From positions 928,001 through 992,000 of the forward strand of contig CAXXMU010000006.1 in the NCBI GenBank assembly GCA_963667785.2: DNA of 64,000 nt, read 5' to 3'. Positions within the stretch are counted from its first letter, which is position 1. Every line of letters begins with the position of its first letter. The stretch comes from Alphaproteobacteria bacterium. GTDB taxonomy: Bacteria > Pseudomonadota > Alphaproteobacteria > UBA828. Both the position numbers and the translations under genes were made by a program. Shown here piece by piece: positions 37,724 through 63,490 of this stretch. Under the pieces are notes generated by a model, which saw only the letters and a program-made list of their open reading frames with translations, was not told the DNA's origin and searched no databases.

Positions 37724-40700
37724 TCATGCGCGGAAATCGAGCATCGCCGTTCGTCTGTCCCCGTGTTGCGTCACATCTCCATCTCGATGCCGCGCGATCC
37801 CCGGGACTTGTCCATCTCCGCAGTGCGTTCTTTGTTCTTGCGCTGGCGCCTTCTGTCGCCCGGGCTCGCGGGCCTTGTCTTGCGCCTCGTCCCGGGTTTC
37901 GGCAGGCCGCTCTAGCATGGCCTCCAGCCCGCGTCCGCGTTCCTTCTCGCGTCCGCGCAGCTTCTCTTCGGCGAGCGCCTTCTCCGCCGCGCCGATCCCT
38001 TCGAGCGCCGAGACCCGCTCGCCGGTCGCGGCCTCCAGGGTCTCCCGCAGTTCCCTCGCATCGTCGGTGACCAGCTCGGCATTGTGCCGCGCGCGGCTGA
38101 TCTCGACGTAGAAGCTCTTCTGCGTCGACAGTTTCGGGTGTTTCGCCTCCATCACCGCGATCACGTTGTCGACGGTGCGCCCCTGGAATGCATGCACGGT
38201 CGAGGCCCAGGTATGGTCGAGATGGCGCAGTTGCGGGTCGTTCTTTCCGAGCTCCAGCATCCGCCCGCCGCCGAGCCGGAAGGCGACGCGGTTTCCCCAC
38301 ACCGCCGCGACCTCCGCCGTGTCGCTGTTGACCAGCCCGAGGCCGGTATCGTTGCGGGTCCAGCGGATGCGGTCGCCGGCGCGAAGTTCCATGCTCTCCG
38401 TCCGGTAGACCTCGACCGCGCCGCGCTTCGCGCCGACCACGCGCAGCCGCCAGGGGATGGATTGTCCCTCCGGACCTTCCAGCGTCACCGTGCCGTTGCG
38501 ATGATCGATCCCGGAGACGCGCCGTTCGTCGCCTTTCTCGACACCGAGACTCTTGTAGTCCCGATGGAAGGCGACGACATCGCCGGGCGAATAGTTCCCC
38601 GCAACCATCTTCTCCGCACTGGTATAGCCGTGGGAGACCAGCCGCTCGGCCTCGAAGGCGGGGCCGCGGATGACGCCGTCGCGGGCGAGGCGCTCGCGGA
38701 TGTGGCCATTGATCTCGGTGCGCAGCGCATGGCTCGGCGCCATCAGCCCGGTGTTCTCCCGTTCTTGTGGGGAGAGCTTCAGCCAGCGCGCGGCGGCCGC
38801 GCCGGCGAGATTGTCGGGGTTGACCTCGGCGATACGGTCGCCGAGCTTGCCGAAGGCCTTGCCGATCTCGCCGGCAAGGCTCGCGCGCACCGCCTCTTTC
38901 AGTTCGGCGTCTTTCTGACGCAGGATCTCGTCCATCACCGCCGTTTTCATGCCGGCGGCCTGGAGCTGGGCGAAGGGCTTCCCGGCATCGACCGCGTCGA
39001 GCTGCTTCCGGTCGCCCACCAGCACCACGCGGGGAATGCGGATGGCGACGGCGATGCGGAGCAGATCCCGAGCCTGCACCGTCGAGGCAAGCGAGCCCTC
39101 GTCGACCACCAGCACGGTCTTGCGGAACGCGGCGCCCATTTCCCTGGCGCCCTTCCGGGTCAGCCGTCCTTCGGCGATGCCCGCGTTGCGGGCGAGAAAC
39201 CGTTGCAGGGTTTCGGTCTCGATCCCGGCTTCCGATGCAAGCGTGCGCGCCGCCGAAGCCGAGGGGGCGACGCCGATCGTGCGGTATCCGCTCTTCGCCG
39301 CGAGTTGTCGCGCACGGTCGAGCATGGTGGTCTTGCCGGTGCCGGCGTAGCCCTGCACGCCGACCACCCGGTCCTTCGAGGACAGGATTGTCTTCACCGC
39401 TTCCTTCTGGCCGACGGTGAGGCGGCCGTTGTGAAGCAGCGGCCCGGCGATCCAGCTCCGCATGACGGGACGCGCGGCGCCCCGGCCGCGTTCCATCAGC
39501 GCGACCGTCTCCTTCTCGTCAGCGACGGCCTTGTCTGTGGTGAGGGATTCGCCCAAAGCCGGCAGGCCGCATGCCTGCAGCGTCCCTTCCTTCTCCAGTC
39601 GCGCGACAGCGGCCTCGGCTTCTCCGATGGCCACCGATCCCGGCTTCCACGCCAGCGCGGCGGCGAGCAGGTCGGTCTTCGCGAACACCGCTTCGCGTTC
39701 GGAGAGGTGCGCCACCGCCCAGGCCATGGCCGCGTCTGCCGGGGATTGCGGCGGCGAGTCGAAGAGGTCCGCCTGGCGAACCGTCGCGGCATCGGGTTCA
39801 GCCCCCCGTCCGGCCGCATTGCTGTTGCGCGCACCTCGGCTCCGATCCGCCGCGTCGGCCGTCAGCGCTCGGGCGTCGAACCCGAGCCCGTCCGCCTGGC
39901 GCTGCCACATCTCCCGCAGTTCGGCACGGTCGACTTCGCGCTTCGCCGCCCGGGTCATCAGCGCCGCGCGCTGGGCGGCGCGCTGGTTCTCCGCCGGCGT
40001 CCCCAGGCCGCGTCCGTCCATCGCCGCCTCGATCCCGGCCCGGCGGGTGGAGAAGGCATCGACCACGTCGCGCGAAACGCCCGCGATCTCGAACCGCCCG
40101 TCGGCATGGGTCTTCTCGATGCTGTAACCGAGCGAGGTCAGTTCCCGCGCGAGCTCGCTCCGGTAGAGGGCGCCGATCAGCATCTTCGAGGAATACAGCT
40201 TCTCGTTGGCCATGGTGCGCCACTTGCCGTCTTCCCCCTGCACCATGTTGGCGATCACCGCGTGGGTGTGGAGCTGAGGATCGAGATTGCGCGAGGTCTC
40301 GTGGGTGAAGGTGGCGATCACCGCCTTCTGCTCCCCGGCACGGATCATCCGCCCGCCGTCTGGGTCCTTCATCCGGGTCTCGACGGCGCGCTCCTCGACC
40401 CAGGCGAGGGTCCGCTCCACCGCGCGCCCGTGAGCCTCGGCCACGCGGACGTCGCCGCCGACCAGCGCGGCCAGCGAGACGGATTTGGGGGCCGAAAGGG
40501 TCAGGTCGCGGCCCGGACGGTGGACGATTTCGCCGTCCTTGCCGGGGCAGCCGAGCTGCGGCCCGTCCGGCACCCGGCCCTCCAGGATCGCGGTGAAGGT
40601 GTCCGGATCGACCGGGCCGGAAAGGCCCAGCGCGTCTGCGCCCTTGCCGGCCCAGGCGCTGGCGGCGCGATGATCGGGATCGTCCTTGGCGTAATAGCCG

Positions 40701-40762
40701 TCTCGTTCATAGTAGGTGACGCCCTGGGACGGCGCGGCGATGGCCCCGATCGAGGCGACCAT
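37724..40762 (-). CDS. MOBF (TrwC/TraI-like) relaxase-helicase
   Basis: 'YYERDGYY', 'DLTLSAPKSVS', 'HETSRNLDPQLHTH', Walker A 'GYAGTGKT', 'VVDE', 'TVHAFQG'. Confidence 0.95.
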   Translation of the reverse strand: MVASIGAIAAPSQGVTYYERDGYYAKDDPDHRAASAWAGKGADALGLSGPVDPDTFTAILEGRVPDGPQLGCPGKDGEIVHRPGRDLTLSAPKSVSLAALVGGDVRVAEAHGRAVERTLAWVEERAVETRMKDPDGGRMIRAGEQKAVIATFTHETSRNLDPQLHTHAVIANMVQGEDGKWRTMANEKLYSSKMLIGALYRSELARELTSLGYSIEKTHADGRFEIAGVSRDVVDAFSTRRAGIEAAMDGRGLGTPAENQRAAQRAALMTRAAKREVDRAELREMWQRQADGLGFDARALTADAADRSRGARNSNAAGRGAEPDAATVRQADLFDSPPQSPADAAMAWAVAHLSEREAVFAKTDLLAAALAWKPGSVAIGEAEAAVARLEKEGTLQACGLPALGESLTTDKAVADEKETVALMERGRGAARPVMRSWIAGPLLHNGRLTVGQKEAVKTILSSKDRVVGVQGYAGTGKTTMLDRARQLAAKSGYRTIGVAPSASAARTLASEAGIETETLQRFLARNAGIAEGRLTRKGAREMGAAFRKTVLVVDEGSLASTVQARDLLRIAVAIRIPRVVLVGDRKQLDAVDAGKPFAQLQAAGMKTAVMDEILRQKDAELKEAVRASLAGEIGKAFGKLGDRIAEVNPDNLAGAAAARWLKLSPQERENTGLMAPSHALRTEINGHIRERLARDGVIRGPAFEAERLVSHGYTSAEKMVAGNYSPGDVVAFHRDYKSLGVEKGDERRVSGIDHRNGTVTLEGPEGQSIPWRLRVVGAKRGAVEVYRTESMELRAGDRIRWTRNDTGLGLVNSDTAEVAAVWGNRVAFRLGGGRMLELGKNDPQLRHLDHTWASTVHAFQGRTVDNVIAVMEAKHPKLSTQKSFYVEISRARHNAELVTDDARELRETLEAATGERVSALEGIGAAEKALAEEKLRGREKERGRGLEAMLERPAETRDEAQDKAREPGRQKAPAQEQRTHCGDGQVPGIARHRDGDVTQHGDRRTAMLDFRA

Positions 40763-41556
40763 CAGAAGAACTGCTCGCCCAGCTCGCGCTCGGGCACGAC
40801 CGACTTGTCTTCGGCCGGCTGGTCCGCCTTCGCAGTGTCCTGGCGGCTTCCGGGATCGGCGGGGGCCGGGTTCGCGGGGACCGCGGCTTCATCGGCCGGT
40901 TCCGCGCTCGCCGACGGGGGAAGGGCCGGCGTCCGCGCCGGCGGCAGCGAGTCCCGCAGCGTGGCGGACGGCAGGGTCCCGTCGCCGACTCCAGCCAGCC
41001 GCTCGACCTCGTCCGTTGACACCAGCAGGACCCCGAGCCTGCCGCTCCGGCGCGCGAGCGCCGCGATCAACTCGTTATCGCTCCAATCGTCCGGCTGTCG
41101 CATCCGGCCCGCGTATCCGGGCCGGACCCGCGGCGCCGGCTCGACAAACGCGCCCCGCCCGCTCTCAAGCTGCCGCAGGCGCAGCGCCATCCGCGCCACC
41201 AGCCATGTGCCGAACAGGGCAAGGCCGATGCACGCGCCCAGCAGCGCGCGGTCCGCCGCAAGGGAGAACATCTGCCGGCGGGCCAGCCACGCCTCATGCA
41301 TGACATAGGCAAAACGGTAGCGCTCGACACTGATGGTTTCGCCGGCCGCCGTGCGGTACTCGACCAGCCCGTAATCGTCGAACCCGACGCCCAGCATGGC
41401 TTCGACCAGCGTGAACTTCCAGGCGGCGTACCAGTCGTGCCCGGTCGTGCCGAGCGCCAGCGCGATGCCGGCGACCAGCACCGCCATGACGGCGGCGCAG
41501 ATCCCCGCCACCACGAGCGGCAGGAGCCATTTGTCGGTGTCAGGCATGACGGACAT
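40762..41556 (-). CDS. Two-TM protein resembling a coupling-protein (TraD) N-terminus without the ATPase
   Basis: Two hydrophobic helices, position immediately upstream of the relaxase (TGATG overlap), no Walker A. Confidence 0.5.
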   Translation of the reverse strand: MSVMPDTDKWLLPLVVAGICAAVMAVLVAGIALALGTTGHDWYAAWKFTLVEAMLGVGFDDYGLVEYRTAAGETISVERYRFAYVMHEAWLARRQMFSLAADRALLGACIGLALFGTWLVARMALRLRQLESGRGAFVEPAPRVRPGYAGRMRQPDDWSDNELIAALARRSGRLGVLLVSTDEVERLAGVGDGTLPSATLRDSLPPARTPALPPSASAEPADEAAVPANPAPADPGSRQDTAKADQPAEDKSVVPERELGEQFF

Positions 41557-41580
41557 CCCCGCGTCCGGGGACGTCCGGGT

Positions 41581-42336
41581 TCACGGCGATGTCCGCCGCG
41601 CGGCCTCGTCCCCGGCGCGGACGCCTCCGTTCCCACATACCCGGCGGTCGGTGGCCCACGCCTCCACATCGTTCCCCCGGTACCGCACGCAGCCGCCAAG
41701 TTTGCAATACCAGGGACCCTCCCCGGTGGTCCGGTAGCGGGCCAGCGTGCTCGGCGACAGCCCCAGCAGTGCCGCCGCTTCGCGGGTGTCCATAAAATGC
41801 TGGTCCTCGCAGAGGCCGACCGGCTGTTCGGGCCCGGCGTCGCGATCTTCGCACCGGGCAGGCAGATCCGGAGACGGCAGCGGGGCGCCGGTCAGGATCG
41901 CCGGCATCGCGCCGGCGCGGGCGCGAATCTCACGCCACTCGGCAGGGCTCGCGTGCGACTTCATCGACGCGCGCACCGCTTCCACCGTCGCCAGCTTCGG
42001 CGACACGCCCGCCAGCAGCTGCGCGACAAAGGACGGGTTGCCCGTCGCTTCCTGTCCGAGCAGCGAACGCTTGACCCCCGTCACCTGAAGAAAGGCATCG
42101 ACTTCCCCGAGGAAGGCGGGGCCGGCCGGCGGCTCTCCCATGAAGGCGAGCGCCCGGTCCACCGTCCTGAGGCACGGACGGCGTCCGTCGCGCAGCGAGG
42201 CGACGAAGTCGCGGTCGCGGTACACGGCGGCGCCGAACGCCCCGGCGCTCATCCCCTTCCGGGCGCACCAGACCTCGATCGCCCGCAGAAACCGGGCCTC
42301 GAGGACGCCGCCGGGATCTGAGTTCGGTATGCCCAT
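41581..42336 (-). CDS. DNA-binding protein: two tandem Cro-like HTH units plus an excisionase-type HTH
   Basis: Internal repeat 'FL..(I/V)......G.....G.......FV..L..G..P.L.TV..'; C-terminal 'MDTREAAALLGLSPSTLARYR..GEGP.Y.KLG..VRY'. Confidence 0.75.
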   Translation of the reverse strand: MGIPNSDPGGVLEARFLRAIEVWCARKGMSAGAFGAAVYRDRDFVASLRDGRRPCLRTVDRALAFMGEPPAGPAFLGEVDAFLQVTGVKRSLLGQEATGNPSFVAQLLAGVSPKLATVEAVRASMKSHASPAEWREIRARAGAMPAILTGAPLPSPDLPARCEDRDAGPEQPVGLCEDQHFMDTREAAALLGLSPSTLARYRTTGEGPWYCKLGGCVRYRGNDVEAWATDRRVCGNGGVRAGDEAARRTSP

Positions 42337-42521
42337 CCGGCATAGATAGGGGCGGCAGGAGAATCGCAAAACCGCTTCCGGTATGGCAAATCCTGCGAAT
42401 CATACGTCAGGCCCCGCCAGGCACCGCATGCCCCCTCAGAGCGGTGAAAAAAGTTTTGCCCAGTGCCTATGCGCCCCGAATGCTCCGGGCTGGAATGGGC
42501 TGAGAGGAACCGTACGGATTT

Positions 42522-42554
42522 GCCTCAATGAGGCCGGGGCGCGCACCCAGGATG
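42522..42554 (-). repeat. Solitary CRISPR-repeat-like unit
   Basis: gcctcaatgaggccggggcg matches the array repeat gcttcaatgaggccggggcg at 19/20 nt. Confidence 0.75.
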
Positions 42555-42944
42555 TCGCCACTGATGCGGCAGGTCTGAAGACCATAGAGGGCGATGCCCG
42601 TCGTTCGGGCAATCGGCGTTCAGGCGATCGCGAACATGCGGAAGCGTCGATGTGGCGAAACCGGCACTCAGCTGGCTGACGCCGTGCGTGCCGCGAGGTC
42701 GAAGGGGGCGCTGCGGTGCCGCCGGGATTGACGCGGTTCACGCAGCCGTGCAGGAAATGGTCGATGTATGGAGACGGCGAGGCCATCGGCATATCTGGAC
42801 CGAAGCACGTGTTGCGAGAACGGTGGCGGCGCCCGACGAGCAACAGATTCCGCTGGTGCGCTTGGTGACGACCGGGAGGCTGGATCGACGAGCGATCATC
42901 TGATCGCTATGGCAGTATCTCCAGCTAGGGAGGCGAACCAAACG

Positions 42945-45900
42945 ATGACGGGGAGCAGGCCATTGGGTCCAGGCGATACGGGGCCAGGCAACGCAGCGGG
43001 GCTCGACGTATTTGCCCTCCGTGACAGCGTCGTCAACGAGTACAAGCGTTTCGCGACCTCCTTCACGACAATCCACGCACCAGACATCCGCGAACAGATC
43101 GAGGCAATCTACGCGGAGGATCGCTACTGGCCCGAGCCGCTCATTCAGATCAACCCGAGCTACAAACGTTCCACGGATGTCGGCACCTTGGTCGCGAATG
43201 GGATACTCCACCCAGGATGCGCAGATATTTTTGGCGAGAGCGGTCAGCCGCTGTCCCTCTACAAGCACCAGGAGCAGGCCATCGCGCTCGCGGCAGAGGG
43301 CGAGAGCTTTGTGGTGACCTCCGGCACGGGATCCGGGAAGTCGCTGTGCTTCTTTATCCCCATTGTCAGTTACGTGCTGGCTGCGCGCCGCACCGGTGGG
43401 CGGCGGCGCACGCATGCCATTGTCGTTTACCCGATGAATGCGCTCGCGAACTCCCAGATGGACGAGCTTGCAAAGTTCACCGACCAAGTGCCCGGAGACC
43501 AGTCGATCACGTTCGCCCGCTATACGGGACAAGAGGACGACCTGGAGCGAAAGCAGATCGCAGACCATCCTCCCGACATCCTTCTCACCAACTTCATGAT
43601 GCTGGAGCTCCTCATGACACGACAGGAGGAGCTCGACCGGCAGGTGATAGGAAACTGCGCCGGTCTACAGTTCCTCGTCCTGGACGAGCTGCACACCTAC
43701 CGCGGCCGTCAAGGCGCAGATGTAGCGTTGTTGGTGCGCCGCGTCCGTGAACGGCTGCGGCCTGAGAACCTGCTGTGCATCGGCACCTCTGCAACCATGG
43801 CGAGCGAGGGTTCTCACCAGGATAAGAGCCGAGTGGTTGCGGGCGTCGCTTCGAAACTCTTCGGGAGCGAGATCACAGAGAGCAACGTCATCGCGGAAAC
43901 CCTTGAGCGCATCACCGATCCGACGGCCACGGCAGATTCCGTAAAGCCGTCCCTCGGAGGCGCTATCGATGCCGGCGCACCGCTACACATGTCTGACGCG
44001 GCACTCCGAGAGCATCCGCTCGCTGTTTGGGTGGAAACGCGTCTAGGTGTCTCGTTTTCCGAGGCTGACCAGCGCTGGATTCGGGCCAGGCCCAGAACAG
44101 TGACCGAGGCAGTCGCAGCGCTCTCGGAGGAGTCAGGGCGAGCCGCCGCTGACTGTCGTAGCGTGCTGCGGGCTTTCCTTCTGGCTTCGAGCGACCCCGA
44201 GAAGGTACGGACCTCGAACCCCGATGACGGCGAGAAGAGCTTCTTTGCGTTCAAGCTCCACCAGTTTATCTCGGGTGCTGGCCACGCGTATGCGACGATC
44301 GAGCCGCCCGGAACGCGCAAAGTGACGGTCGATGGTCAACAGTTCCTGCCCGGCCACGCGGACAAGCGACTTTATGCCGTACATTTCTGTCGCGAATGTG
44401 GTCACGAGTATCATCCGGTGCGGTTGGTGCAGCAGGAGGAGGGGGCGGTCTTCCTCGCGCGCGACATTGACGATGCGCCACCGAGCGGGCCAAACGAGAC
44501 GGACGAAGATCCGTTGGAGACACGGACCGAGGGAGTGTTTGGTTTCTTGACGCTGGAGCCACGGAACGATCCCACGTTCACCTTCGCCGACCAAGACGAT
44601 GACTACCCTGAGACCTGGCTTGAGCTTGATGCAAACAACCGCACACGGCTCAAGAAGTACTACCGCGGTGCGCGCGCTCGTAGCTTCGTAGTCTCGCCCG
44701 ATGGACGTGTCGGTACAGGAACGAAAGTGTGGTTCCAGCCCGGAAAATTCCGGCTCTGCCTCCGTTGCGGGAACACCCAGGGCGGGGCCGCGCGCGATCG
44801 CACGCGTCTCGCCTCGCTGTCAGCCGAGGGGCGCAGTTCGGCAACCACCGTACTGGTCGGTAGTACGCTGCGCTGGATGCACGGCGCCGACTCAGTGCTG
44901 GCCCCCTACACTCGAAAGCTATTGGGCTTCACAGACAACCGACAGGACGCTGCGCTCCAAGCCGGTCATTTCAACGACTTTCTTTTTGTCAGCTTGGTGC
45001 GCGCGGGCTTTCTCGGCGCACTACGGGATGCGGGTTCGAACGGGCTCCGTAGCGACGAATTGGGAATTGCTCAGCAGCGAATGCTTGGATTTGACCGATC
45101 AGACCCGGAGATTCGCGCCGAATGGCTGCTTGAGCCGACGTTGCGCGGCTTTAATCTACAGGAGGCCGAGGGCACGCTTCGACAGGTGCTAGCTTATCGC
45201 ATTTGGTTCGATCAGCGACGTGGATGGCGATACACGAATCCGAACCTTGAGCAACTCGGCATGGTCCAAGTGGAGTACTTGGGTCTCGAGGAGCTCTCCA
45301 GGGACGACGACCTGTTTGCCGACTCGCCCCCTCTACTGAAGCATGCTGACCGCACTGTGCGGAAAGCGGTCTACCGCGAATTGCTTGACCACATGCGGAA
45401 GTGGATGGCGATCCGCAGCCAGGTTCTCGAAACTGCCGTTCTCGAACAGTTGGTCGCGAAGTCCCACAGTCGGCTTCGACCTCCCTGGGGACTCGGCATA
45501 GACGAGAAGCCGAGAGCCGCTCGCTGGTTGATGACTATCGCACCCACTCGTAAGGTGAACACGCTCCGTGACATGGACTTGATTGTGCGCGGCGGCTCAC
45601 GAAGCGGTCTCGGGCGAACGTTACGCTCAACAAGCCTTTGGGGTGGCGACGCAGCCATCCGCGACCTGAAGTCAGAGGATTTCGACAAGCTAGTCGAGGA
45701 TCTTCTCCGTGCAGGCGCGACACACGGCCTTCTATCGGAAGAGAACACGCCGTTTGATCGGTCGGGGTGGCGGCTCAACGATGCATGCATTCTGTTTCGA
45801 CTTGGCGATACAGCAGAGAACGGCGACGGTGCCGGGCAGAACGCATTTTTTTGCGACCTCTACGAGAATCTCGCACGGATGCTTCGCGCACCCATGCACC

Positions 45901-48287
45901 CGCTTTTCGGGTTCGAGGCGCGCGAGCACACCGCCCAGGTAAATCCCGACAACAGGGAAATCCGGGAGAAGCGCTTTCGCTTCGGCGATCGCGAGCGCGA
46001 AGAGCTAGCTACGGACGAGAAGCGACTCCGAGAGGTCGGCGAAGCAAATCGGTTTCTACCCGTTCTCTTTTGCTCGCCGACGATGGAGCTCGGCGTCGAC
46101 ATCGCGGCATTGAACGCCGTTCACATGCGGAACGTGCCACCTACGCCGGCAAACTATGCCCAACGCGGCGGCCGCGCGGGTCGAAGCGGGCAGGCTGCGC
46201 TGGTCATTACCTATGCGTCCTCTCAAAGCCCGCACGACCAATACTTCTTCCGCGATCCCAAAGCGATGGTCTACGGTGAAGTACGTGCCCCGATCTTGGA
46301 GCTCGCGAACCAGGACCTGATCGACAGCCATCTTCACGCAGTCTGGCTCTCGTGTGTTGACGAACGACTCGACCCGTGTATCGCGGAGCTGCTCGTACTT
46401 GGTGATTCTAGTCGTCCAATCGAGCCGGGTATCGGGGCAGCATTGCAAGACAAGCGCGTCGTGGTCTCGGCAGGCGAACGGGTTCGGCGCGTCCTCGATC
46501 TCGTCGCAGACGATCTCACACCTGAATCTGCGCCTTGGTACACGGGTCGAGACGCCTATTCAGATAAGGTCGTGGCGGATGCCGCGGAGCGCTTCGACGA
46601 AGCGTTCAATCGCTGGCGAGACCTTTTCGCCGCCGCCGAGATGCAGCGAGACGCCGCGCGGAGGATCATGGACGACTATGCGGTGGCCTACCAAGACAAG
46701 CGGGCAGCGCAGACTCGGCACGCGCAGGCTGTCGACCAGATCAACTTGCTCCAGCGTGGGACAAGCGCGCTCTCAAGCGACTTCTACACGTATCGCTACC
46801 TAGCTACAGAGGGCTTTCTACCTGGGTACAACTTCCCGAGATTGCCCCTCCTCGCGTACATTCCCGCAAGTCGGGATGGTCGTAGACAGCAGACGTACCT
46901 TCAGCGTCCGCGCTTCCTTGCGCTTGCCGAATTTGGCCCGCGCAGCCTCGTCTATCACGAAGGGCGTGCGTACCGGGTCGTACGAGCGCTGCTCTCCCTT
47001 GGTCATCGGGAGTCGGCGACACCCGATGCACAACTCCCCACTAAGGCCGTACGAACTTGCACGAACTGCGGTGCGGGACATTTCAGCGACGAGCTTTCGA
47101 TGTGCCATGTATGCGGAACATCCCTCGGCAACGCCGACGTTGTGGGCAACACATATCGAATTGAGAACGTTGCAACATATCCGGCCGAACATATCACCGC
47201 GAACGACGAAGAACGTCAGCGCCAAGGCTTCGACTTGCAGACCACGTTTGAATGGGCGATCCGCGACCAAGAGATTGACGTACGGCAGGCATCGGCGTCT
47301 GACGCGGAGGGCGAAATTGTTCGCATGGCGTACGGCGCGGGGGCGACGATCACCCGTCTTAATAAGGGTCTGCGCCGTAGAGCCAACAAGAAGATTCTCG
47401 GTTTCCGAATCGATCCGGTATCGGGGTACTGGGCCAAGGGCGTTGACGAGGACGCGGATGAGCACGCGCTCGACCCCACGGCCTCCCCTCGGCAATGGAT
47501 CGTCCCCTGTGTCCAGGATCGCAAGAATGCGCTCCTCTTCCGACCCAGCGGGAATTCGCTCTCACAGGTCACGCTGTCCACTGTGCAGCACGCGATCCTG
47601 CGTGGCATCGAGGCAGTGTTCCAACTAGAGGAAGGCGAAATACTCGCCGAACCGATGCCGACGCGTGATGTTCGGAACGGTTTCCTGCTTTACGAGGCCA
47701 CCGAAGGCGGCGCAGGCGTTCTGACACGGATCATCAGCCAAGAGATGAGCCTTGCCACCGTGGCGGAAAGGGCACTGGAGATCATGCATCTCTCTGTTGG
47801 TGGTGGTTATCTGCCCGATTCTCCATCGGGTCTCTCAGATCAACCGGAGACAACTTGCGTCGCGGCCTGCTATCGCTGCCTTATGTCTTACTACAATCAG
47901 CCCGACCACGAGAGTCTAGATCGCCGAGACGAGGACGCTCGCGCGATGCTGCTCCGTCTAGCCCGTGCCCGCACAACGACGCTCGACAGGCGGTCGTCAC
48001 AGCCAACCACCTGTGTGGATCGGGAAGGCTCGCGTGACGGGCGGTGGGATGCCGAGGCGTCGCAGCACGGAATTCCCGCACCTGATCCGGAGCCTCTACT
48101 GGCTGGCGAGCGTGCCGTGCGCTGCGTCTGGCGCAAACACTATGTTGCGGCGATTATCGACGAGGCCGATTGTCTGGCCACGCAGTCGATGGAAGACCTT
48201 GGCTTCGAGGTGATACGGTTTGGCGATCCCGCAAGCTGGAATACTGCCTTCGCACGTCTGGCTTCCGCTCTTGGGCGCGAGTCATGA
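42945..48287 (+). CDS. Large SF2 helicase with C-terminal DUF1998 (DrmA/DrmB- or DruE-like)
   Basis: 'SGTGSGKS','YPMNALANSQ','LDELHTY','SATM','TMELGVDI','QRGGRAGR', Zn motifs, 'YEATEGGAG..CVAACYRCL'. Confidence 0.9.
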   Translation: MTGSRPLGPGDTGPGNAAGLDVFALRDSVVNEYKRFATSFTTIHAPDIREQIEAIYAEDRYWPEPLIQINPSYKRSTDVGTLVANGILHPGCADIFGESGQPLSLYKHQEQAIALAAEGESFVVTSGTGSGKSLCFFIPIVSYVLAARRTGGRRRTHAIVVYPMNALANSQMDELAKFTDQVPGDQSITFARYTGQEDDLERKQIADHPPDILLTNFMMLELLMTRQEELDRQVIGNCAGLQFLVLDELHTYRGRQGADVALLVRRVRERLRPENLLCIGTSATMASEGSHQDKSRVVAGVASKLFGSEITESNVIAETLERITDPTATADSVKPSLGGAIDAGAPLHMSDAALREHPLAVWVETRLGVSFSEADQRWIRARPRTVTEAVAALSEESGRAAADCRSVLRAFLLASSDPEKVRTSNPDDGEKSFFAFKLHQFISGAGHAYATIEPPGTRKVTVDGQQFLPGHADKRLYAVHFCRECGHEYHPVRLVQQEEGAVFLARDIDDAPPSGPNETDEDPLETRTEGVFGFLTLEPRNDPTFTFADQDDDYPETWLELDANNRTRLKKYYRGARARSFVVSPDGRVGTGTKVWFQPGKFRLCLRCGNTQGGAARDRTRLASLSAEGRSSATTVLVGSTLRWMHGADSVLAPYTRKLLGFTDNRQDAALQAGHFNDFLFVSLVRAGFLGALRDAGSNGLRSDELGIAQQRMLGFDRSDPEIRAEWLLEPTLRGFNLQEAEGTLRQVLAYRIWFDQRRGWRYTNPNLEQLGMVQVEYLGLEELSRDDDLFADSPPLLKHADRTVRKAVYRELLDHMRKWMAIRSQVLETAVLEQLVAKSHSRLRPPWGLGIDEKPRAARWLMTIAPTRKVNTLRDMDLIVRGGSRSGLGRTLRSTSLWGGDAAIRDLKSEDFDKLVEDLLRAGATHGLLSEENTPFDRSGWRLNDACILFRLGDTAENGDGAGQNAFFCDLYENLARMLRAPMHPLFGFEAREHTAQVNPDNREIREKRFRFGDREREELATDEKRLREVGEANRFLPVLFCSPTMELGVDIAALNAVHMRNVPPTPANYAQRGGRAGRSGQAALVITYASSQSPHDQYFFRDPKAMVYGEVRAPILELANQDLIDSHLHAVWLSCVDERLDPCIAELLVLGDSSRPIEPGIGAALQDKRVVVSAGERVRRVLDLVADDLTPESAPWYTGRDAYSDKVVADAAERFDEAFNRWRDLFAAAEMQRDAARRIMDDYAVAYQDKRAAQTRHAQAVDQINLLQRGTSALSSDFYTYRYLATEGFLPGYNFPRLPLLAYIPASRDGRRQQTYLQRPRFLALAEFGPRSLVYHEGRAYRVVRALLSLGHRESATPDAQLPTKAVRTCTNCGAGHFSDELSMCHVCGTSLGNADVVGNTYRIENVATYPAEHITANDEERQRQGFDLQTTFEWAIRDQEIDVRQASASDAEGEIVRMAYGAGATITRLNKGLRRRANKKILGFRIDPVSGYWAKGVDEDADEHALDPTASPRQWIVPCVQDRKNALLFRPSGNSLSQVTLSTVQHAILRGIEAVFQLEEGEILAEPMPTRDVRNGFLLYEATEGGAGVLTRIISQEMSLATVAERALEIMHLSVGGGYLPDSPSGLSDQPETTCVAACYRCLMSYYNQPDHESLDRRDEDARAMLLRLARARTTTLDRRSSQPTTCVDREGSRDGRWDAEASQHGIPAPDPEPLLAGERAVRCVWRKHYVAAIIDEADCLATQSMEDLGFEVIRFGDPASWNTAFARLASALGRES

Positions 48288-51070
48288 ACGAACTCGTCTA
48301 TGCACCCGGAAGCCTCGTCAGCGCTCGCGGACGGGAGTGGGTTGTTCTCAGCGGAAGCTCGGCGGAGACGCTCAGGGTTCGTCCTGTCACCGGATCCGAT
48401 GAAGATCGGACGTTAATCCACCTTCCGCTCGAGATCGAGCCGGTTCGTGAGGCTCGGTTCCCCTTGCCCAGCGCGCACCTGGTCGGCGGGCACGACTCCG
48501 CCTTGCTGCTTCGCGACGCGTTGCTACTCTCCCTAAGACGGGGTGCCGGACCCTTTCGGAGCATCGGCCAGATTTCGGTAGAACCGCGTGGATACCAAAT
48601 CGTGCCGCTTCTCATGGCGCTCAAACTCGACCCGGTACGTTTACTCATCGCGGACGACGTTGGAGTGGGGAAAACGATCGAGGCGTTGCTTATCGCTCGC
48701 GAGTTGCTCGACCGCGGCGACATCGATCGAACCGTCGTGCTCTGTCCGCCGCATCTCGTGGACCAATGGATCACCGAACTGGAGGTTCACTTCCATATCC
48801 GCGCAGTAGCCGTCACCGCCCGAACCGCGCGGCGCTTGGAACAGAGCGTACCGCCAGGACTAAGCATCTTTGCGGTGCATCCACACACCGTCGTCAGCCT
48901 CGACTACGTGAAGGCTCCCGAGAGACGAGACAACTTTCTCCAAGCGTGTCCAGATTTTGTGATTGTCGACGAGGCACACACGTGTGCCTCGTCGAGCCAG
49001 CGCCGGCATCAGCGGCACGAGCTGCTTCAAGGCTTAGCCAGCAGCGCCGCACGACACCTTGTTCTGCTAACGGCAACTCCCCATAGCGGCGACGATGCTG
49101 CCTTCTACCGTCTTCTCGCCTTGCTCGCCCCCGAATTCGAGCGCCTGGCAGAGGTCAGAGGTACGGAGCGCGATCGTCTACGTGAACGCCTCGCTAACCA
49201 TTTCGTCCAGAGACGACGCCCCGACATTGCGGAGTGGCATGAGGGCGACATCTTCCCGCGTCGCGAAACGAAAGAGCTCACCTACAGGTTGAGTGGAGCT
49301 TGGGAGGCCTTTTTCAACTCAGTCCTCGACTATTGCGCCGAAGTTGTCGAAACGGGCACCGGTGACGAGCAGAGGCAGCGCCTCAACTTTTGGGGAACGC
49401 TAGCTCTCTTACGTTGCACCGGGTCGAGCCCCGTTGCTGCCGTGTTGGCCCTGCGCACCCGTGCTGGCGAAGACTTAGGGGTCGAAACGCGCGAAGACCT
49501 TCTTGATCGCATTTTCGATGGCGATGTGGATTCACTCCTAACCGACGATGTGGAACCACCCTTAGGTGGTGAAGTTCCAGCGCTGGGACGACTGATAGAG
49601 CAGGCGGAGAGACTCGCGGGCCAAAGCGGTGATCCAAAACTGATAGCGGCGTCAGAGCATGTCTCCGAGTTGGTCGAGGCGGGATTTAACGTAGTGGTAT
49701 TTTGTCGATTTATCTCCACCGCCCACTACGTGGCCCGACACTTCCGCGAAAACATGACGGAAATTGTCGTCGGTGCTGTGACCGGTGAGATGTCGCCTGA
49801 AGAGCGGGAAGAGCGCGTGGCGTCACTCGGTGCAACACAAGGTACCAAGGTCTTGGTCGCGACAGACTGTCTTTCGGAGGGAATCAATCTACAGGAGCAC
49901 TTCGACGCTGTCGTTCACTATGATCTCTCGTGGAATCCAACGCGTCATGAGCAGCGGGAGGGGCGCGTCGATCGCTTCGGTCAGCCGAGCAACACAGTGC
50001 GCGCCACACTCCTTTATGGCATCGACAACCCGGTTGACGGTGCGGTACTTCAGGTCATCCTGCGTAAGGCGGCCCGCATTCGGGAGGAACTCGGCGTCCC
50101 GGTGCCCGTGCCGGACGAGAGTCACTCGCTCACGCAGGCTCTGCTCAAGGCCGTGCTCTTGCGTCGGCGGGGCCGCTCCGACGCCATCGCTGGCCGACAG
50201 CTTGAGTTGTTCGAGAGCAGCTGGGAGGACGCGAAGGCAAAGGCGAAGAGAAGCCGGACCATGTTCGCCCAGCGACGGATCAAGCCCGACGAGGTGCTGC
50301 CCGAGTGGCACAAGAGCCTCGCCGCAGTCGGTGGCCGAGACGACGTGGAGCGCTTCACGAACCGCGCTCTCGTCCGGCTCGGTTCAGGGCTTGAACCGTT
50401 CGGGCGGGGATTCAAGGTCCCGACGGCGGCACTGCCCGCTGACGTTCGCGAGCGTCTGGAGGCGGAAGACATAGCGGGCACGATTGCCATCGACTTCGCG
50501 TATCCCCCGGCGCGCGGATGCCGTCCTCTCCAGCGCAACCATCCCCTCATCGCGGTCCTCGCCGACGCGCTTCTAGGGAGGACCCTTTCGGTTGACGACA
50601 CCGACGCCTCCACCGGCGATCCCTCGGTCCTGGGGCGCGTTGGCTGCTGGATCTCGGAAGGAGTGCGTGGCCGGACGACGGTCGCGCTATTGCGGCTGCG
50701 GCACCAGCTCTTGTCACGCGCGCGGCACCGGGACACAACACTGATGGTCGAGGAGGCAGCGGCGTTAGCCTGGGTCGTCCCACGAACAAACGGACCGATC
50801 TCAGGGTCCGAAGCACTTTCACTGCTCCGACTTCCTCCTGTAGATGATCCCCCGCCGCATGTGCGGAAACGTGAGATCGCAAGAGCCCTCGACATGATCG
50901 AGGAGCGCACAGCGGATCTGGAGAATTTCGCGACGGCGCGAGCAGGAGCCTTGCTCGATGATCATTTGCGTATGCGCGAAGCTAGCAGAGCGGGCGGTAG
51001 CACGTCCGTCCAGGCCCTTCCGCGTCCCGATGTGATCGGCGTATACGTGCTCCTGCCCAGGCTGAGCTGA
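48284..51070 (+). CDS. SNF2-family helicase (DrmD-like)
   Basis: 'LIADDVGVGKTIE','VDEAH','LTATPH','SEGINLQ','WNPTRHEQREGRVDR'; ATGA overlap. Confidence 0.9.
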   Translation: MNELVYAPGSLVSARGREWVVLSGSSAETLRVRPVTGSDEDRTLIHLPLEIEPVREARFPLPSAHLVGGHDSALLLRDALLLSLRRGAGPFRSIGQISVEPRGYQIVPLLMALKLDPVRLLIADDVGVGKTIEALLIARELLDRGDIDRTVVLCPPHLVDQWITELEVHFHIRAVAVTARTARRLEQSVPPGLSIFAVHPHTVVSLDYVKAPERRDNFLQACPDFVIVDEAHTCASSSQRRHQRHELLQGLASSAARHLVLLTATPHSGDDAAFYRLLALLAPEFERLAEVRGTERDRLRERLANHFVQRRRPDIAEWHEGDIFPRRETKELTYRLSGAWEAFFNSVLDYCAEVVETGTGDEQRQRLNFWGTLALLRCTGSSPVAAVLALRTRAGEDLGVETREDLLDRIFDGDVDSLLTDDVEPPLGGEVPALGRLIEQAERLAGQSGDPKLIAASEHVSELVEAGFNVVVFCRFISTAHYVARHFRENMTEIVVGAVTGEMSPEEREERVASLGATQGTKVLVATDCLSEGINLQEHFDAVVHYDLSWNPTRHEQREGRVDRFGQPSNTVRATLLYGIDNPVDGAVLQVILRKAARIREELGVPVPVPDESHSLTQALLKAVLLRRRGRSDAIAGRQLELFESSWEDAKAKAKRSRTMFAQRRIKPDEVLPEWHKSLAAVGGRDDVERFTNRALVRLGSGLEPFGRGFKVPTAALPADVRERLEAEDIAGTIAIDFAYPPARGCRPLQRNHPLIAVLADALLGRTLSVDDTDASTGDPSVLGRVGCWISEGVRGRTTVALLRLRHQLLSRARHRDTTLMVEEAAALAWVVPRTNGPISGSEALSLLRLPPVDDPPPHVRKREIARALDMIEERTADLENFATARAGALLDDHLRMREASRAGGSTSVQALPRPDVIGVYVLLPRLS

Positions 51071-51072
51071 GC

Positions 51073-56258: not shown

Positions 56259-56259
56259 A

Positions 56260-57767: not shown

Positions 57768-57863
57768 AGTACGATTCCTTCTGAAAAACCAGAGGCTTAC
57801 GCCGGATCAAACAGGGATCTCGATCAAATGTCGGTCTCGGTGGTTGCGAGCCCCCGCAACCAA

Positions 57864-60647: not shown

Positions 60648-62943
60648 GCTTCAATGAGGCCGGGGCGACGAAGCCCCGGAATTGTCCACGTCGCCACTCG
60701 CTAGGACGCGGGAAAACTTGCTTCAATGAGGCCGGGCCGACGAAGCCCCGGAATTTTCCGCGTCGCCAGTACGAAATCCGCACTATCCGCCTGCTTCAAT
60801 GAGGCCGGGGCGACGAAGCCCCGGAATTCTCGCCGAAGCGACAATCGCCGATGCGCAGGCGGCGCTTCAATGAGGCCGGGGCGACGAAGCCCCGGAATTC
60901 ACGTCTACGCCATCCTGGAGTCGTGCGGCTTCCGCGTGCTTCAATGAGGCCGGGGCGACGAAGCCCCGGAATTCACGATGCAAGCCGCCTTGAACTCCGC
61001 CGGCACGCGGCTTCAATGAGGCCGGGGCGACGAAGCCCCGGAATTCAGGAAGTGAATGCGGCACTCGCGGAAACCGGCGAGCTTCAATGAGGCCGGGGCG
61101 ACGAAGCCCCGGAATTCTCCCCATGTCGCCGAGACGGCCGCGCCGTTCTCGAGGCTTCAATGAGGCCGGGGCGACGAAGCCCCGGAATTGTCGCAACAAC
61201 AGGAGGGCGTCGCAATGGCGTTCAATCGCTTCAATGAGGCCGGGGCGACGAAGCCCCGGAATTGTCGCAGGGTGAGCGATGCGCCCTGGAGGCCGTGGCG
61301 GCTTCAATGAGGCCGGGGCGACGAAGCCCCGGAATTGGCGCCTTCCTCGGCTGCGTCATCATGTGGGGCCTGAAGCTTCAATGAGGCCGGGGCGACGAAG
61401 CCCCGGAATTGCACGGCATGGAGCAGCACGACTACGCCATCCGCAGGCTTCAATGAGGCCGGGGCGACGAAGCCCCGGAATTGCCCACCTGGCCGCGTTT
61501 GGTCGCAAGCATACCGCGCTTCAATGAGGCCGGGGCGACGAAGCCCCGGAATTCCCGCCGGTCAGGCGGGCCGTCTTTTACCGCCTCCGTGCTTCAATGA
61601 GGCCGGGGCGACGAAGCCCCGGAATTCCTGCTCAAGAAGGGCGAGAAAGTCGGCCTGCACAAGCTTCAATGAGGCCGGGGCGACGAAGCCCCGGAATTGG
61701 CGATCGGCGACCCGCCATGGCTGCTGACGGATGGCTCGCTTCAATGAGGCCGGGGCGACGAAGCCCCGGAATTGTGGCGGCGTAGTACGGCCTCGCGTGC
61801 AGCAAAGCCTGGCTTCAATGAGGCCGGGGCGACGAAGCCCCGGAATTGATGACACGACCGACAACGCCTGGAAGTTCTGGGTGCTTCAATGAGGCCGGGG
61901 CGACGAAGCCCCGGAATTCGGGTCGATGCGCCAGGTATGGCCGTGGCGCTCGCCGCTTCAATGAGGCCGGGGCGACGAAGCCCCGGAATTTCGCTCAGGT
62001 TCCCGGCGGTATCGACCGCGCGGGCGCTGCTTCAATGAGGCCGGGGCGACGAAGCCCCGGAATTTGCACCCGCAAGAGCGCGTCGCCCTCGAGGCCGACC
62101 AGGCTTCAATGAGGCCGGGGCGACGAAGCCCCGGAATTGTCGCTCAAGGCGCAGTTGCACCCGCTTTATGCGCTGCTTCAATGAGGCCGGGGCGACGAAG
62201 CCCCGGAATTATTCTTCGCCTGTATCGCGTGCGGATGCCCGGATGCAGGGCTTCAATGAGGCCGGGGCGACGAAGCCCCGGAATTGCCGTCATGAGCGTC
62301 GAATTCAGCGCCGATGGATCGTTGCTTCAATGAGGCCGGGGCGACGAAGCCCCGGAATTTACGCCTCTATCATGCCGACATAGCCGACGATGATATCGCT
62401 TCAATGAGGCCGGGGCGACGAAGCCCCGGAATTAGATCGTACGGGAGCTTCGGGTTGCCGGGGTGCCTGGCTTCAATGAGGCCGGGGCGACGAAGCCCCG
62501 GAATTTGCGGCACGCGCGGCTACGTCGGTCGCCGCGAGGGTTAGCTTCAATGAGGCCGGGGCGACGAAGCCCCGGAATTTCGTGCCGATGATTAGGGTGT
62601 GCATTGCGCTATGCGCTTCAATGAGGCCGGGGCGACGAAGCCCCGGAATTCGCGGCCAGCGGCGCGGGCAACGTCACCTACATGTCCTAGCTTCAATGAG
62701 GCCGGGGCGACGAAGCCCCGGAATTCAGGATGTTGTTGGTGTGGTTCGTGGCTGCTTTCGTGCTTCAATGAGGCCGGGGCGACGAAGCCCCGGAATTAAG
62801 CGCCGCCGAGCCGAGCCGCCCGTCGCGAGGCCGCTTCAATGAGGCCGGGGCGACGAAGCCCCGGAATTGTGGTATGACCGCTCGCGTGAGAATCTCGTGC
62901 AGAGCGGGCTTCAATGAGGCCGGGGCGACGAAGCCCCGGAATT
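60648..62943 (-). CRISPR. CRISPR array, 32 repeats and 31 spacers, type I-G (I-U)-like
   Basis: 36-bp repeat AATTCCGGGGCTTCGTCGCCCCGGCCTCATTGAAGC (- strand), ~73-bp period; leader on the cas2 side. Confidence 0.97.
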
Positions 62944-63482: not shown

Positions 63483-63490
63483 CGCGCGCC

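What the first reader, a model, noticed from the sequence alone, without database searches (positions are those of the whole stretch)
42462..42556. Solitary host-type CRISPR repeat inside the mobile element (Racr or crRNA-like regulator candidate)
Seen: 18 kb from the array, in the intergenic control region, the - strand reads CATCCTGGGTGCGCGCCCCGGCCTCATTGAGGC. It matches the repeat's 3' 20 nt at 19/20, keeps a weakened hairpin and has an ATTGAGGC handle (array: ATTGAAGC). About 24 nt downstream lies another hairpin (gccccgaatgctccgggc, 42473-42490) that might be a second, very degenerate repeat. Known: mobile-element solitary repeats act as RNA anti-CRISPRs (Racr), and repeat-short spacer units (CreA/CreR) guide Cascade to repress promoters. 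Inference: the element inhibits or co-opts the host I-G-like machinery, possibly to regulate its own transfer or defence operons.
Basis: partly seen in the sequence, partly recalled or inferred. Interest (0 to 1): 0.72.

Follow-up and report, generated by a model that had tools for sequence, protein, structure and literature searches.

The report
Orphan CRISPR repeat beside a mobilisation module
A single, worn copy of a type I-G CRISPR repeat really does sit next to the transfer genes of a mobile element, but it looks more like an inherited relic than a working anti-CRISPR or guide RNA.

Summary
Window 42522-42555 (- strand) is one full-length but degenerate type I-G CRISPR repeat: 19 of 20 to the array repeat's 3' end, and 28.1 bits (E 2.6e-5) with a model built from seven related arrays. 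It is the only such hit outside the 32-repeat array.

It lies 70 nt outside a conserved mobilisation module (HTH_17 protein, membrane protein, TrwC relaxase). Repeat plus about 70 nt plus T-run recur as one homologous unit in a metagenome sister element (L088), and in worn form in L055. The other 9 of 11 sister loci lack it.

The proposed second repeat (42473-42490) is not a repeat. No target for the 'spacer' was found, although the same search found a genuine guide-target pair in a relative. The copy breaks two otherwise invariant positions, its hairpin is weak (-5.6 against -15.5 kcal/mol), and it falls below published SRU thresholds. It differs from L088 about as much as 4-fold codon sites do.

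The host has lost Cas7g, and Csb2 is cut by an IS.

Best reading (0.5): an inherited, decaying orphan repeat with no present role here. A Racr-like decoy active in other hosts remains possible (about 0.2).

The parts
42522..42555 (-). Solitary, degenerate type I-G CRISPR repeat (34 nt; handle ATTGAGGC at 42529-42522)
   Evidence: sequence; 19/20 to the repeat's 3' end, unique outside the array; 28.1 bits, E 2.6e-5; hairpin -5.6 kcal/mol.
42489..42521 (-). 33 nt after the handle ('pseudo-spacer' or trailer); 26/33 identical in L088
   Evidence: homology with L088. (no target found).
42473..42490 (-). Small hairpin GCCCGGAGCATTCGGGGC; not a repeat. The TTCGGGG motif recurs before the T-run in L053, L055, L056 and L088.
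   Evidence: fold. (no model hit). (sister sequences).
42447..42452 (-). T-run TTTTTT. blastn homology of 6 of the 6 genome-collection sisters (L050-L053, L055, L056) that align this far stops exactly here. In L055 it follows a canonical terminator hairpin.
   Evidence: The terminator scan found none in the window itself.
42337..42446 (-). Conserved leader of the mobilisation operon. Together with the T-run (42337-42452) it is 98/116 identical to L088. Candidate promoter/oriT region: inference only.
41581..42336 (-). P0001, a protein with a C-terminal excisionase-type HTH_17 domain; first gene of the mobilisation module
   Evidence: GC3 0.84.. PF12728, 42.4 bits.
40762..41556 (-). P0002, predicted membrane protein, no family
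37724..40762 (-). TrwC-type relaxase/helicase
   Evidence: PF08751, 287 bits.
60648..62943 (-). Type I-G CRISPR array: 32 repeats of 36 nt, 31 spacers of 35-39 nt
42768..48287 (+). DruE-like helicase, first gene of the divergent defence cargo (with DpdE/DrmD-like and DrmMI-like genes, then Septu PtuAB and an HNH gene up to 57767)
42621..42646 (-). 26-mer identical to an internal piece of a multi-copy DDE_Tnp_1_4 transposase ORF in other genomes; flanks unrelated; unexplained

Best explanation
The site is an orphan type I-G CRISPR repeat that travels with the mobilisation module (HTH_17 protein, membrane protein, TrwC relaxase) of an alphaproteobacterial integrative mobilisable or conjugative element.

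It sits at the point where the conserved module meets exchangeable cargo, 70 nt beyond the T-run that bounds the module.

The common ancestor of this element and of sister L088 already carried a canonical repeat of the GCATCC...GCGCGC-loop type at this spot. How it got there is unresolved: either as a solitary repeat unit or through recombination with an array.

Since then the copies have worn down at about the neutral rate:
- the window copy has three substitutions and a 2-nt loss;
- L088 has both stem arms shortened;
- L055 has lost the hairpin.

In the present host it most likely does nothing. The interference module of the neighbouring I-G system is gone, no target exists for the sequence after the handle, and there is no sign of its own promoter.

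Shown: the repeat is real, it is linked to the module, it is homologous to the L088 unit, it is degenerate, and the host lacks Cas7g. Inferred: neutral decay and lack of present function.
For: Real and single.

Inherited with the module:
- Homology between window and L088 starts within a few bases of the repeat's 5' end and runs through trailer, T-run, leader and P0001.
- The L088 repeat scores 31.3 bits, E 4.6e-6.
- L055 has a worn copy at the same place, 53 nt before its T-run (14.1 bits, E 0.2 over 79 kb).

Patchy distribution: of 11 sister loci with upstream sequence, only L088 (clear) and L055 (marginal) have it. In the tree each carrier has a close non-carrier: window/L050, L088/L087, L055/L053+L056.

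Neutral-like divergence, window against L088:
- 4-fold sites 101/125 identical (0.81);
- repeat 28/34;
- trailer 26/33;
- hairpin to T-run 25/36.

Degenerate:
- a stem G and a handle A that are invariant (stem) or nearly so (handle) in seven arrays are changed;
- two of seven pairs are broken;
- hairpin -5.6 against -15.5 kcal/mol.

No partner machinery. The Cas7g model matches 5 of 5 array-bearing relatives but not this 98%-complete genome. Csb2 matches only model positions 310-490 of 492, next to an IS1595 transposase.

No target, no promoter-like site, and no spacer of 432 from six arrays matches the element or its sisters.
Against: - The rate comparison rests on one pair, and L088 is itself a dead remnant: P0001 has an in-frame stop and the module is cut off. 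It therefore says little about constraint in intact elements.
- The 3' 14-20 nt, including the handle, are the best kept part in all three MGE copies. That could reflect selection.
- The junction with the repeat is kept in relatives about 95-98% identical from two other studies (contigs in X3 and X5).
- If oriT lies upstream of the relaxase operon, the position is the start of the leading region, where anti-defence functions cluster (PMC11541004, passages read). This is inference.
- The host of L055 has a 97-repeat I-G array and the window's host has a near-perfect 32-repeat array, whereas the hosts of two repeat-less sisters have none. That fits a host-matched function.
- Expression was not testable.
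Confidence: 0.5

Rival explanations
1. Racr-like RNA decoy. Transcribed toward the T-run, the repeat mimics pre-crRNA, is bound by the Cas6 domain of Csb2 and by Cas7g, and ties them up in dead-end complexes in recipients with an intact I-G system. That would protect the incoming element.
For: - Solitary, intergenic and on a mobile element.
- Subtype matches the host array.
- The handle and 3' stem arm are the best kept parts.
- L088 keeps a perfect 6-bp hairpin (-12.1 kcal/mol).
- The sisters have a terminator-like hairpin plus T-run downstream.
- Carriers sit in hosts with I-G arrays and two non-carriers in hosts without.
- Possible leading-region position (inference).
- Racrs are established for other subtypes (PMC10651486, abstract and passages).
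Against: - Below SRUFinder's thresholds: best blastn-short hits are 34.2 bits (own repeat, 17 nt) and 40.1 bits (G010, 20 nt), against the 41.1 required. Coverage is 47-56%, against 90%.
- Invariant stem and handle positions are mutated, and the repeat-type hairpin takes only 27% of the ensemble.
- No promoter-like site, and no sequence conserved with L088 upstream of the repeat.
- L055, in the host with the largest array, has lost the hairpin.
- 9 of 11 sisters lack it.
- No I-G spacer of 432 targets this element family.
- 'I-G' does not occur in the main text of the Racr paper.
Confidence: 0.2
2. DNA-level recombination site or scar. The repeat is where the element exchanges cargo or recombines with CRISPR arrays, so it marks a crossover point rather than encoding an RNA.
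For: - Homology between window and L088 begins at the repeat's 5' edge, and the DNA upstream is unrelated in the two.
- L088 has a second, hairpin-collapsed repeat (22.9 bits, E 8e-4) exactly where module homology ends after P0001. It is joined through a CCCCGG microhomology. The DNA beyond it matches what lies upstream in its sister L087.
- Cargo next to the T-run differs in nearly every sister.
- Integration into arrays has been proposed for solitary repeats (PMC10651486, introduction passage).
Against: - No second copy in direct orientation near the element in the window or anywhere in G446 within 3 mismatches.
- The window copy is not joined to the array.
- No recombinase is known to use such a site.
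- The pattern rests on two or three loci.
Confidence: 0.15
3. crRNA-like regulator (CreA/CreR or crlRNA type). The handle plus about 31 nt guides Cascade to a partly matching promoter and represses it.
For: - An 8-nt handle is followed by about 31 nt and then a hairpin.
- I-G systems of this genus do use such RNAs. G016 has a mini-array (L096 15958-16051) whose 37-nt guide matches positions 1-11 (except 6) of a TTC-flanked site upstream of cas3g.
- Phage copies of such RNAs are reported (bioRxiv 10.1101/2024.10.29.618823; search listing and start of abstract only).
Against: - Only one repeat; the downstream hairpin is not repeat-like.
- Nowhere in the genome is there an exact match to the first 12 nt, or 13/14, 14/16, 17/20, 19/24 or 26/37.
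- No seed match with every sixth base free in the window, in L088, or in 168 kb of related I-G loci and sister elements.
- The differences between window and L088 do not fall on every sixth position (read from the alignment).
- The host has no Cascade.
Confidence: 0.05
4. Displaced terminal repeat. It was the last repeat of the neighbouring array and was split off by insertion of the 18-kb defence segment.
For: - Same strand as the array, 18 kb downstream of its trailer end.
- The array has no degenerate last repeat.
- A multi-copy 390-bp element abuts the array end, which shows rearrangement there.
Against: - The unit is attached to the mobilisation module in L088 with no array upstream, and in G446 the array is on another chromosome.
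- Terminal repeats of the G446 and G015 arrays decay at their 3' ends; here the 3' end is the conserved part.
- No integrase or transposase lies in 42556-60647.
Confidence: 0.05
5. Chance resemblance in GC-rich DNA.
For: Chance look-alikes do occur. A 29-nt 90% match in G011 lies inside a riboflavin-synthase-like ORF, and a 14-mer in G446 lies in coding DNA.
Against: E 2.6e-5 over the window. Unique in the genome at 2 or fewer mismatches. A homologous copy sits at the same position in L088.
Confidence: 0.01

Closest known systems
Solitary repeat units / RNA anti-CRISPRs (Racr), Camara-Wilpert et al. 2023 (PMC10651486; abstract, passages and SRUFinder methods read)
   Same: A single CRISPR repeat copy in an intergenic region of a mobile element, not next to cas genes, of the same subtype as the host array.
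   Different: It is under the published identity, coverage and bit-score cut-offs. The hairpin is weakened and the handle mutated. No promoter-like site was found. It sits on a chromosomal mobilisable element rather than a phage or plasmid. The subtype is I-G, which is not mentioned in that paper's main text. The host lacks the effector proteins a Racr would sequester.
CreA/CreR-type crRNA-like regulatory mini-arrays (crlRNAs). The concept is recalled, apart from the listing and a reference-list entry. A live example was found here in G016 (L096 15958-16051).
   Same: An 8-nt I-G handle followed by a spacer-length stretch. Handle variants carry an extra G (ATTGAGGC here, ATTGGAGC in G016).
   Different: The G016 unit has two repeat-derived ends, lies inside the cas locus, and has a TTC-flanked seed match upstream of cas3g. 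The window unit has one repeat, lies beside relaxase genes, and has no detectable target.
Orphan or degenerate CRISPR repeats left by array decay or recombination (general knowledge, recalled)
   Same: A single copy with point changes and small deletions, divergence close to neutral, and no cas partner for interference.
   Different: It is not at an array end. Its 3' half, not its 5' half, is the conserved part. It is inherited with a mobile element's transfer module across different hosts.

Membership tests
Type I-G CRISPR repeat (Rfam CRISPR-DR16; I-G features from PMC9638904) | 36-nt unit with a 7-bp stem, then 4 nt, then an 8-nt 5' handle | tested here: inconclusive
   All parts are present in order over 34 nt, but 2 of 7 pairs are non-standard and the loop is 2 nt shorter. 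The array repeat fits exactly. The I-G cleavage geometry was read.
Type I-G CRISPR repeat (Rfam CRISPR-DR16; I-G features from PMC9638904) | Reaches the Rfam gathering score | tested here: not met
   16.3 bits against 35. The clade-specific model R1 gives 28.1 bits, E 2.6e-5. Array repeats score 35-41 bits with Rfam and 55.9 bits with R1.
Solitary repeat unit / Racr | Intergenic, with no other full or partial repeat within 100 bp | tested here: met
   It lies in the intergenic gap 42337-42767. No second model hit better than E 3.5 within the gap.
Solitary repeat unit / Racr | At least 90% identity over at least 90% of a known repeat, and blastn-short bit score of at least 41.1 (SRUFinder) | tested here: not met
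   Best hits are 17 nt, 34.2 bits (own repeat) and 20 nt, 40.1 bits (G010). Coverage is 47-56%. The thresholds were read. Only four repeats were used as queries, not the 17,823-repeat database.
Solitary repeat unit / Racr | Carried by a mobile element whose host has the matching CRISPR-Cas subtype | tested here: inconclusive
   It is linked to a TrwC mobilisation module. The host has an I-G array, Cas3g, Cas4g/Cas1g and Cas2, but no Cas7g and only a truncated Csb2.
Solitary repeat unit / Racr | Repeat-like secondary structure | tested here: not met
   The repeat-type hairpin is -5.6 kcal/mol and 27% of the ensemble, against -15.5 and 97%. In 43-nt and 121-nt contexts the minimum-energy fold does not contain it.
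Solitary repeat unit / Racr | Own promoter; expressed as a small RNA; inhibits interference | not testable with these tools
   No sigma-70-like site (this scan does not cover other promoter types). Only assembled contigs of one metatranscriptome were available, and they did not cover 42414-43120, which is not evidence either way.
CreA/CreR-type crRNA-like regulator | Two repeat-derived ends flanking a pseudo-spacer | tested here: not met
   One hit only. Compare G016, with hits of 16.1 and 40.1 bits 37 nt apart.
CreA/CreR-type crRNA-like regulator | PAM-flanked partial (seed) match of the pseudo-spacer to a promoter | tested here: not met
   None in the genome, window, L088 or 168 kb of related loci. 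Positive control: the G016 target with a TTC PAM was found by the same scan.
Terminal repeat of the adjacent array | Contiguous with the array at spacer distance; decay toward the trailer (3') side | tested here: not met
   It is 18.1 kb away. The 3' half is conserved and the 5' half diverged, the reverse of the G446 and G015 terminal repeats.

The most novel reading that the evidence does not exclude
The unit is the first RNA anti-CRISPR for type I-G and the first on a chromosomal mobilisable or conjugative element. It would sit as the very first feature of the leading region next to oriT, so that a repeat mimic is made as soon as the element enters a recipient. The worn copies seen here would be lineages released from selection: a host without Cascade, or a dead element.
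Probability: 0.15. Interest if true: 0.65.

Novelty: new member of a known kind. Interest (0 to 1): 0.3.

Why it matters
Solitary CRISPR repeats on phages and plasmids are known to act as RNA anti-CRISPRs. Whether chromosomal mobilisable elements use the same trick, and whether it exists for type I-G, is open.

This case shows that such a repeat can be inherited with a relaxase module across hosts. It also shows that it wears out at about the neutral rate, is lost by cargo turnover, and can persist beside an I-G system that has already lost its effector.

It is a useful caution. A good sequence match to a repeat on a mobile element is not enough to call a Racr or a guide RNA.

Tried and rejected
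Second degenerate repeat at 42473-42490. Rejected: no model hit at E<=10.

Decayed mini-array upstream. The candidates were a handle-like GCCACATCGACGC at 42644-42661, the 26-mer, and a hairpin at 42590-42612. Scores were 9.1 bits (E 3.5) and Rfam DR28 19.2 bits (E 0.85), and the spacings do not fit a 72-nt period. Not supported.

Look-alikes judged to be chance:
- G011 (L070/L075), inside a riboflavin-synthase-like ORF by my reading of the translation; no family search was run.
- G446:C2:2213147, in coding DNA.
- G009 and L087 'CCCTCATTCGAGC', beside what reads as a reverse-strand gene start.

Self-targeting. No spacer of the own array matches elsewhere in the genome beyond 14-26-nt chance hits.

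Spacers against the element. Of 432 spacers from six arrays (own 31, G446 96, G010 17, G016 163, G003 18, G015 107), none matches window 1-60600 or 15 other loci. The longest match is 20 nt, inside the PKS gene.

Searches for relatives:
- Plasmid collection, 1020-nt query, distant mode: no match.
- DruE-like gene with its upstream region, in 401 genomes of the class: only the helicase core matches, no upstream homology.
- 29 distant P0001-homologue loci other than the window's own (L013-L041): 0 carry the motif at 4 or fewer mismatches.
- Att-like second copy: none in the window, none in G446 at 3 or fewer mismatches.
- The trailer (42453-42521) has no significant match in 498 kb of held loci or in the genome.

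Sequencing runs. All four runs laid were assembled contigs. The RNA run X20 covers 41270-42352 and nothing at 42414-43120. This shows neither expression nor silence. The differences of the X3 and X5 contigs inside the repeat could not be read, because only 40 of 320 differences were listed.

The csx17/Cas8g model TIGR04113 matched nowhere, including 5 genomes with working-looking loci. It says nothing about Cas8g.

Supplementary files of PMC10651486, which hold its candidate list by subtype, were not open to me, so I cannot say whether I-G solitary repeats are listed there.

Slips:
- wrong strand format. I did the job with a script instead.
- wrong coordinates gave a useless alignment A1. Redone as A2.
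- bad search term. Corrected and resent.

Full report
WHAT IS THERE

The window is G000:C6:928001-992000, in a genome of about 70% G+C.

It holds a CRISPR array of 32 repeats of 36 nt at 60648-62943. Read on the - strand, the repeat is AATTCCGGGGCTTCGTCGCCCCGGCCTCATTGAAGC (Rfam CRISPR-DR16).

Beyond the array lie cas2 (63189-63494), cas4g/cas1g, a Cas3-extension gene and cas3g, all on the - strand.

The repeat has the published type I-G layout: a 7-bp stem, then 4 nt, then an 8-nt handle (PMC9638904, passages).

The finding's sequence is present as quoted at 42522-42555 on the - strand.

IS IT MORE THAN CHANCE?

Yes.

- The 3' 20 nt match the repeat at 19/20. This is the only hit with 2 or fewer mismatches outside the array in 4.09 Mb. 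The three hits with 3 mismatches elsewhere show the chance level.
- None of 100 shuffles of the window gave any match.
- I built a covariance model from seven I-G repeats of seven genomes, leaving this copy out. Over window 1-60640, both strands, filters off, it scores the site at 28.1 bits, E 2.6e-5, over its full length. The next hit is 11.5 bits, E 0.78.
- Rfam's own model gives 16.3 bits, under its threshold of 35.

The copy is degenerate.

- A stem G and a handle A are changed. The stem G is invariant in all seven arrays and the handle A in six of them.
- The loop is 2 nt shorter, and two of seven pairs are non-standard.
- The repeat-type hairpin is worth -5.6 kcal/mol (27% of the ensemble), against -15.5 (97%) for the array repeat.
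- In longer contexts the minimum-energy fold does not contain the hairpin, and the mutated handle can pair with itself.

The 3' half that matches is common to all seven arrays, so it is not specific to this host. The 5' half is slightly nearer the G010 type.

The proposed second repeat at 42473-42490 is a small hairpin but gives no model hit.

SURROUNDINGS

GC3 shows the real genes on the - strand to be 41581-42369 (start most likely ATG 42336) and 40762-41556.

- The first, P0001, has a C-terminal excisionase-type HTH_17 domain.
- The second has no family.
- Next comes a TrwC relaxase at 37724-40762.

Divergently, from 42768, lies a defence cargo:
- a DruE-like helicase;
- a DpdE/DrmD-like SNF2 protein;
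- a DrmMI-like methylase;
- Septu PtuA/PtuB;
- an HNH protein.

Integrases lie at 12430-13686 and 24223-25659, and a recombinase at 25535-26749. No type IV secretion genes were recognised in the window.

The repeat therefore lies in a 431-nt gap between a mobilisation operon and defence cargo.

THE HOST SYSTEM IS BROKEN

- Csb2 matches only model positions 310-490 of 492, which is the Cas6 domain. It abuts an IS1595 transposase gene.
- The Cas7g model finds nothing in this 98%-complete genome.
- The same model matches 5 of 5 relatives that carry arrays, next to those arrays.
- The Cas8g model matched nowhere and is uninformative.
- The array repeats are near-perfect, so the loss is probably recent.

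SISTER ELEMENTS

P0001 relatives of 74-89% identity were found in 8 genome-collection loci and 2 metagenome loci. Weaker ones were found in the genus.

In the 6 genome-collection loci that align this far (L050-L053, L055, L056), blastn homology to the window (80-90%) stops exactly at the T-run at 42452. A loose end at the same place appears in a sponge metagenome run.

Upstream of that point the sisters carry unrelated DNA, with two exceptions.

L088. It has a homologous unit: repeat (31.3 bits, E 4.6e-6), about 70 nt of trailer, T-run, leader and P0001. Homology to the window starts within a few bases of the repeat's 5' end. Its repeat is of the G010 type. Both stem arms are shortened by one base, which leaves a perfect 6-bp hairpin.

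L055. It has a hairpin-less copy with an extra T in the handle, 53 nt before its T-run (14.1 bits, E 0.2 over 79 kb). I accept it only because of its position.

On a tree of the shared 830 nt, each carrier has a close non-carrier: window/L050, L088/L087, L055/L053+L056. The unit is therefore old in this family and is often lost when cargo is replaced.

Contigs from two other studies, 95-98% identical to the window, bridge the module, the gap and the DruE-like start. The arrangement is therefore not an assembly artefact.

The host of L055 has a 97-repeat I-G array on another chromosome. The hosts of L050 and of L053/L056 have none.

IS IT UNDER SELECTION?

Identity between window and L088:

| Region | Identical |
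|---|---|
| 4-fold codon sites in P0001 | 101/125 (0.81) |
| Repeat | 28/34 |
| Trailer | 26/33 |
| Hairpin to T-run | 25/36 |
| Leader | 98/116 |

The unit therefore differs about as much as silent sites do.

There is a caveat. L088 is a dead copy, with a stop inside P0001 and the module cut off after it. The comparison cannot exclude constraint in intact elements.

IS IT A GUIDE RNA?

No match to the 33 nt after the handle was found:
- in the genome (first 12 exact, 13/14, 14/16, 17/20, 19/24, 26/37);
- as a seed with every sixth base free in the window or in L088;
- in 168 kb of I-G loci of relatives and sister elements.

The method works. The model found a mini-array in the G016 cas locus, made of a hairpin-less repeat, 37 nt, and a full repeat at L096 15958-16051. 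The same scan found its partial target, flanked by TTC, upstream of cas3g.

IS IT AN ANTI-CRISPR RNA?

It has the right general look. But it fails the published SRU thresholds (34.2 and 40.1 bits against 41.1; coverage 47-56%). It has a weak hairpin. It has no promoter-like site. There is no conserved sequence upstream of it.

None of 432 spacers from six I-G arrays targets this element family.

In favour are these points:
- the handle and 3' arm are the best kept parts in all three copies;
- carriers tend to be in hosts with arrays;
- if oriT lies upstream of the relaxase operon, the site is at the start of the leading region, where anti-defence genes cluster (PMC11541004, passages). The oriT position is my inference.

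IS IT A RECOMBINATION MARK?

Homology boundaries coincide with repeat sequence twice:
- at the 5' edge of the unit, in window against L088;
- at a second, collapsed repeat in L088 (22.9 bits, E 8e-4).

That second repeat is joined to the module through a CCCCGG microhomology. It is followed by DNA that lies upstream in L087.

But no partner copy exists in the window or in G446.

IS IT THE ARRAY'S OLD LAST REPEAT?

Unlikely. The unit is tied to the mobilisation module where no array is near (L088, G446). Terminal repeats in this clade decay at the 3' end, the reverse of what is seen here.

VERDICT

A real, single, degenerate I-G repeat, inherited with a relaxase module and sitting at its cargo junction.

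| Reading | Confidence |
|---|---|
| Relic with no role in this host | 0.5 |
| Racr-like decoy in other hosts | 0.2 |
| Recombination site or scar | 0.15 |
| Guide-like regulator | 0.05 |
| Displaced terminal repeat | 0.05 |
| Chance | 0.01 |

The kind of thing (a solitary repeat on a mobile element) is known. The I-G subtype and the carrier, a chromosomal mobilisable element, make it a new member of that kind. Interest 0.3.

Noticed in passing
G000:C6:997164-998791 (just beyond the window; L001 7164-8791): The host I-G interference module is gone. Csb2 matches only model positions 310-490 of 492 (the Cas6 domain) and abuts an IS1595-type transposase gene. No Cas7g is found in the genome, although the model matches 5 of 5 array-bearing relatives.
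   Followed up: yes
window 42621-42646 (- strand): A 26-mer is 100% identical to an internal piece of a multi-copy DDE_Tnp_1_4 transposase ORF in at least 4 other genomes (G017, G035, G012, G028), with near-identical copies in more. Its flanks are unrelated and no such IS is in this genome. A 6-bp hairpin follows at 42590-42612. Whether it is a spacer fragment or an antisense piece is unexplained.
   Followed up: partly
L096 15839-16051 (G016:C1:1871839-1872051): A crRNA-like regulatory mini-array in a congener's I-G locus: a hairpin-less repeat with an intact handle, a 37-nt guide, and a full repeat with handle ATTGGAGC. The guide matches positions 1-11 (except 6) of a TTC-flanked site between the mini-array and cas3g, which looks like autorepression of the interference operon.
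   Followed up: partly
window 60247-60639: A roughly 390-bp element directly abutting the trailer end of the array is multi-copy across the genus (up to about 8 copies in one genome, 75-86% identical). It has an internal hairpin and no ORF was checked. It may have cut off the array's end.
   Followed up: no
window 58351-60542: The AHSA1-like and hydrolase genes next to the array have a second copy, 93-96% identical, at G000:C1:419967-422459.
   Followed up: no
window 42768-57767: Defence cargo beside the repeat: a DruE-like 1839-aa helicase with an MZB domain, a DpdE/DrmD-like SNF2 protein (596 bits to DpdE), a DrmMI-like methylase, Septu PtuA/PtuB and an HNH protein. The first three form a mixed Druantia/DISARM/Dpd-like set.
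   Followed up: partly
window 15387-23161: A further probable defence cluster near a second integrase: a dCTP-deaminase-like protein, an adenylosuccinate-synthetase-like protein, an RNase_H_2 + CoaE-like kinase fusion, and an Eco57I-type methylase.
   Followed up: no
L088 3793-3814: A hairpin-collapsed I-G repeat (GCGTCC-CC-GGCCTCATTGAAGC) lies exactly where the mobilisation module is cut off after a P0001 pseudogene. It is joined through a CCCCGG microhomology. The DNA beyond it matches a region upstream in sister L087.
   Followed up: partly
L071 about 214-285 (G011:C6, about 481510-481585): A two-repeat I-G mini-array with handle ATTGACGC in a congener. Its context was not examined.
   Followed up: no
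window 3134-3208: An Rfam 'ASpks' hit (55.5 bits) lies inside a 3453-aa polyketide-synthase-like ORF. It is probably a conserved coding motif rather than an sRNA.
   Followed up: no
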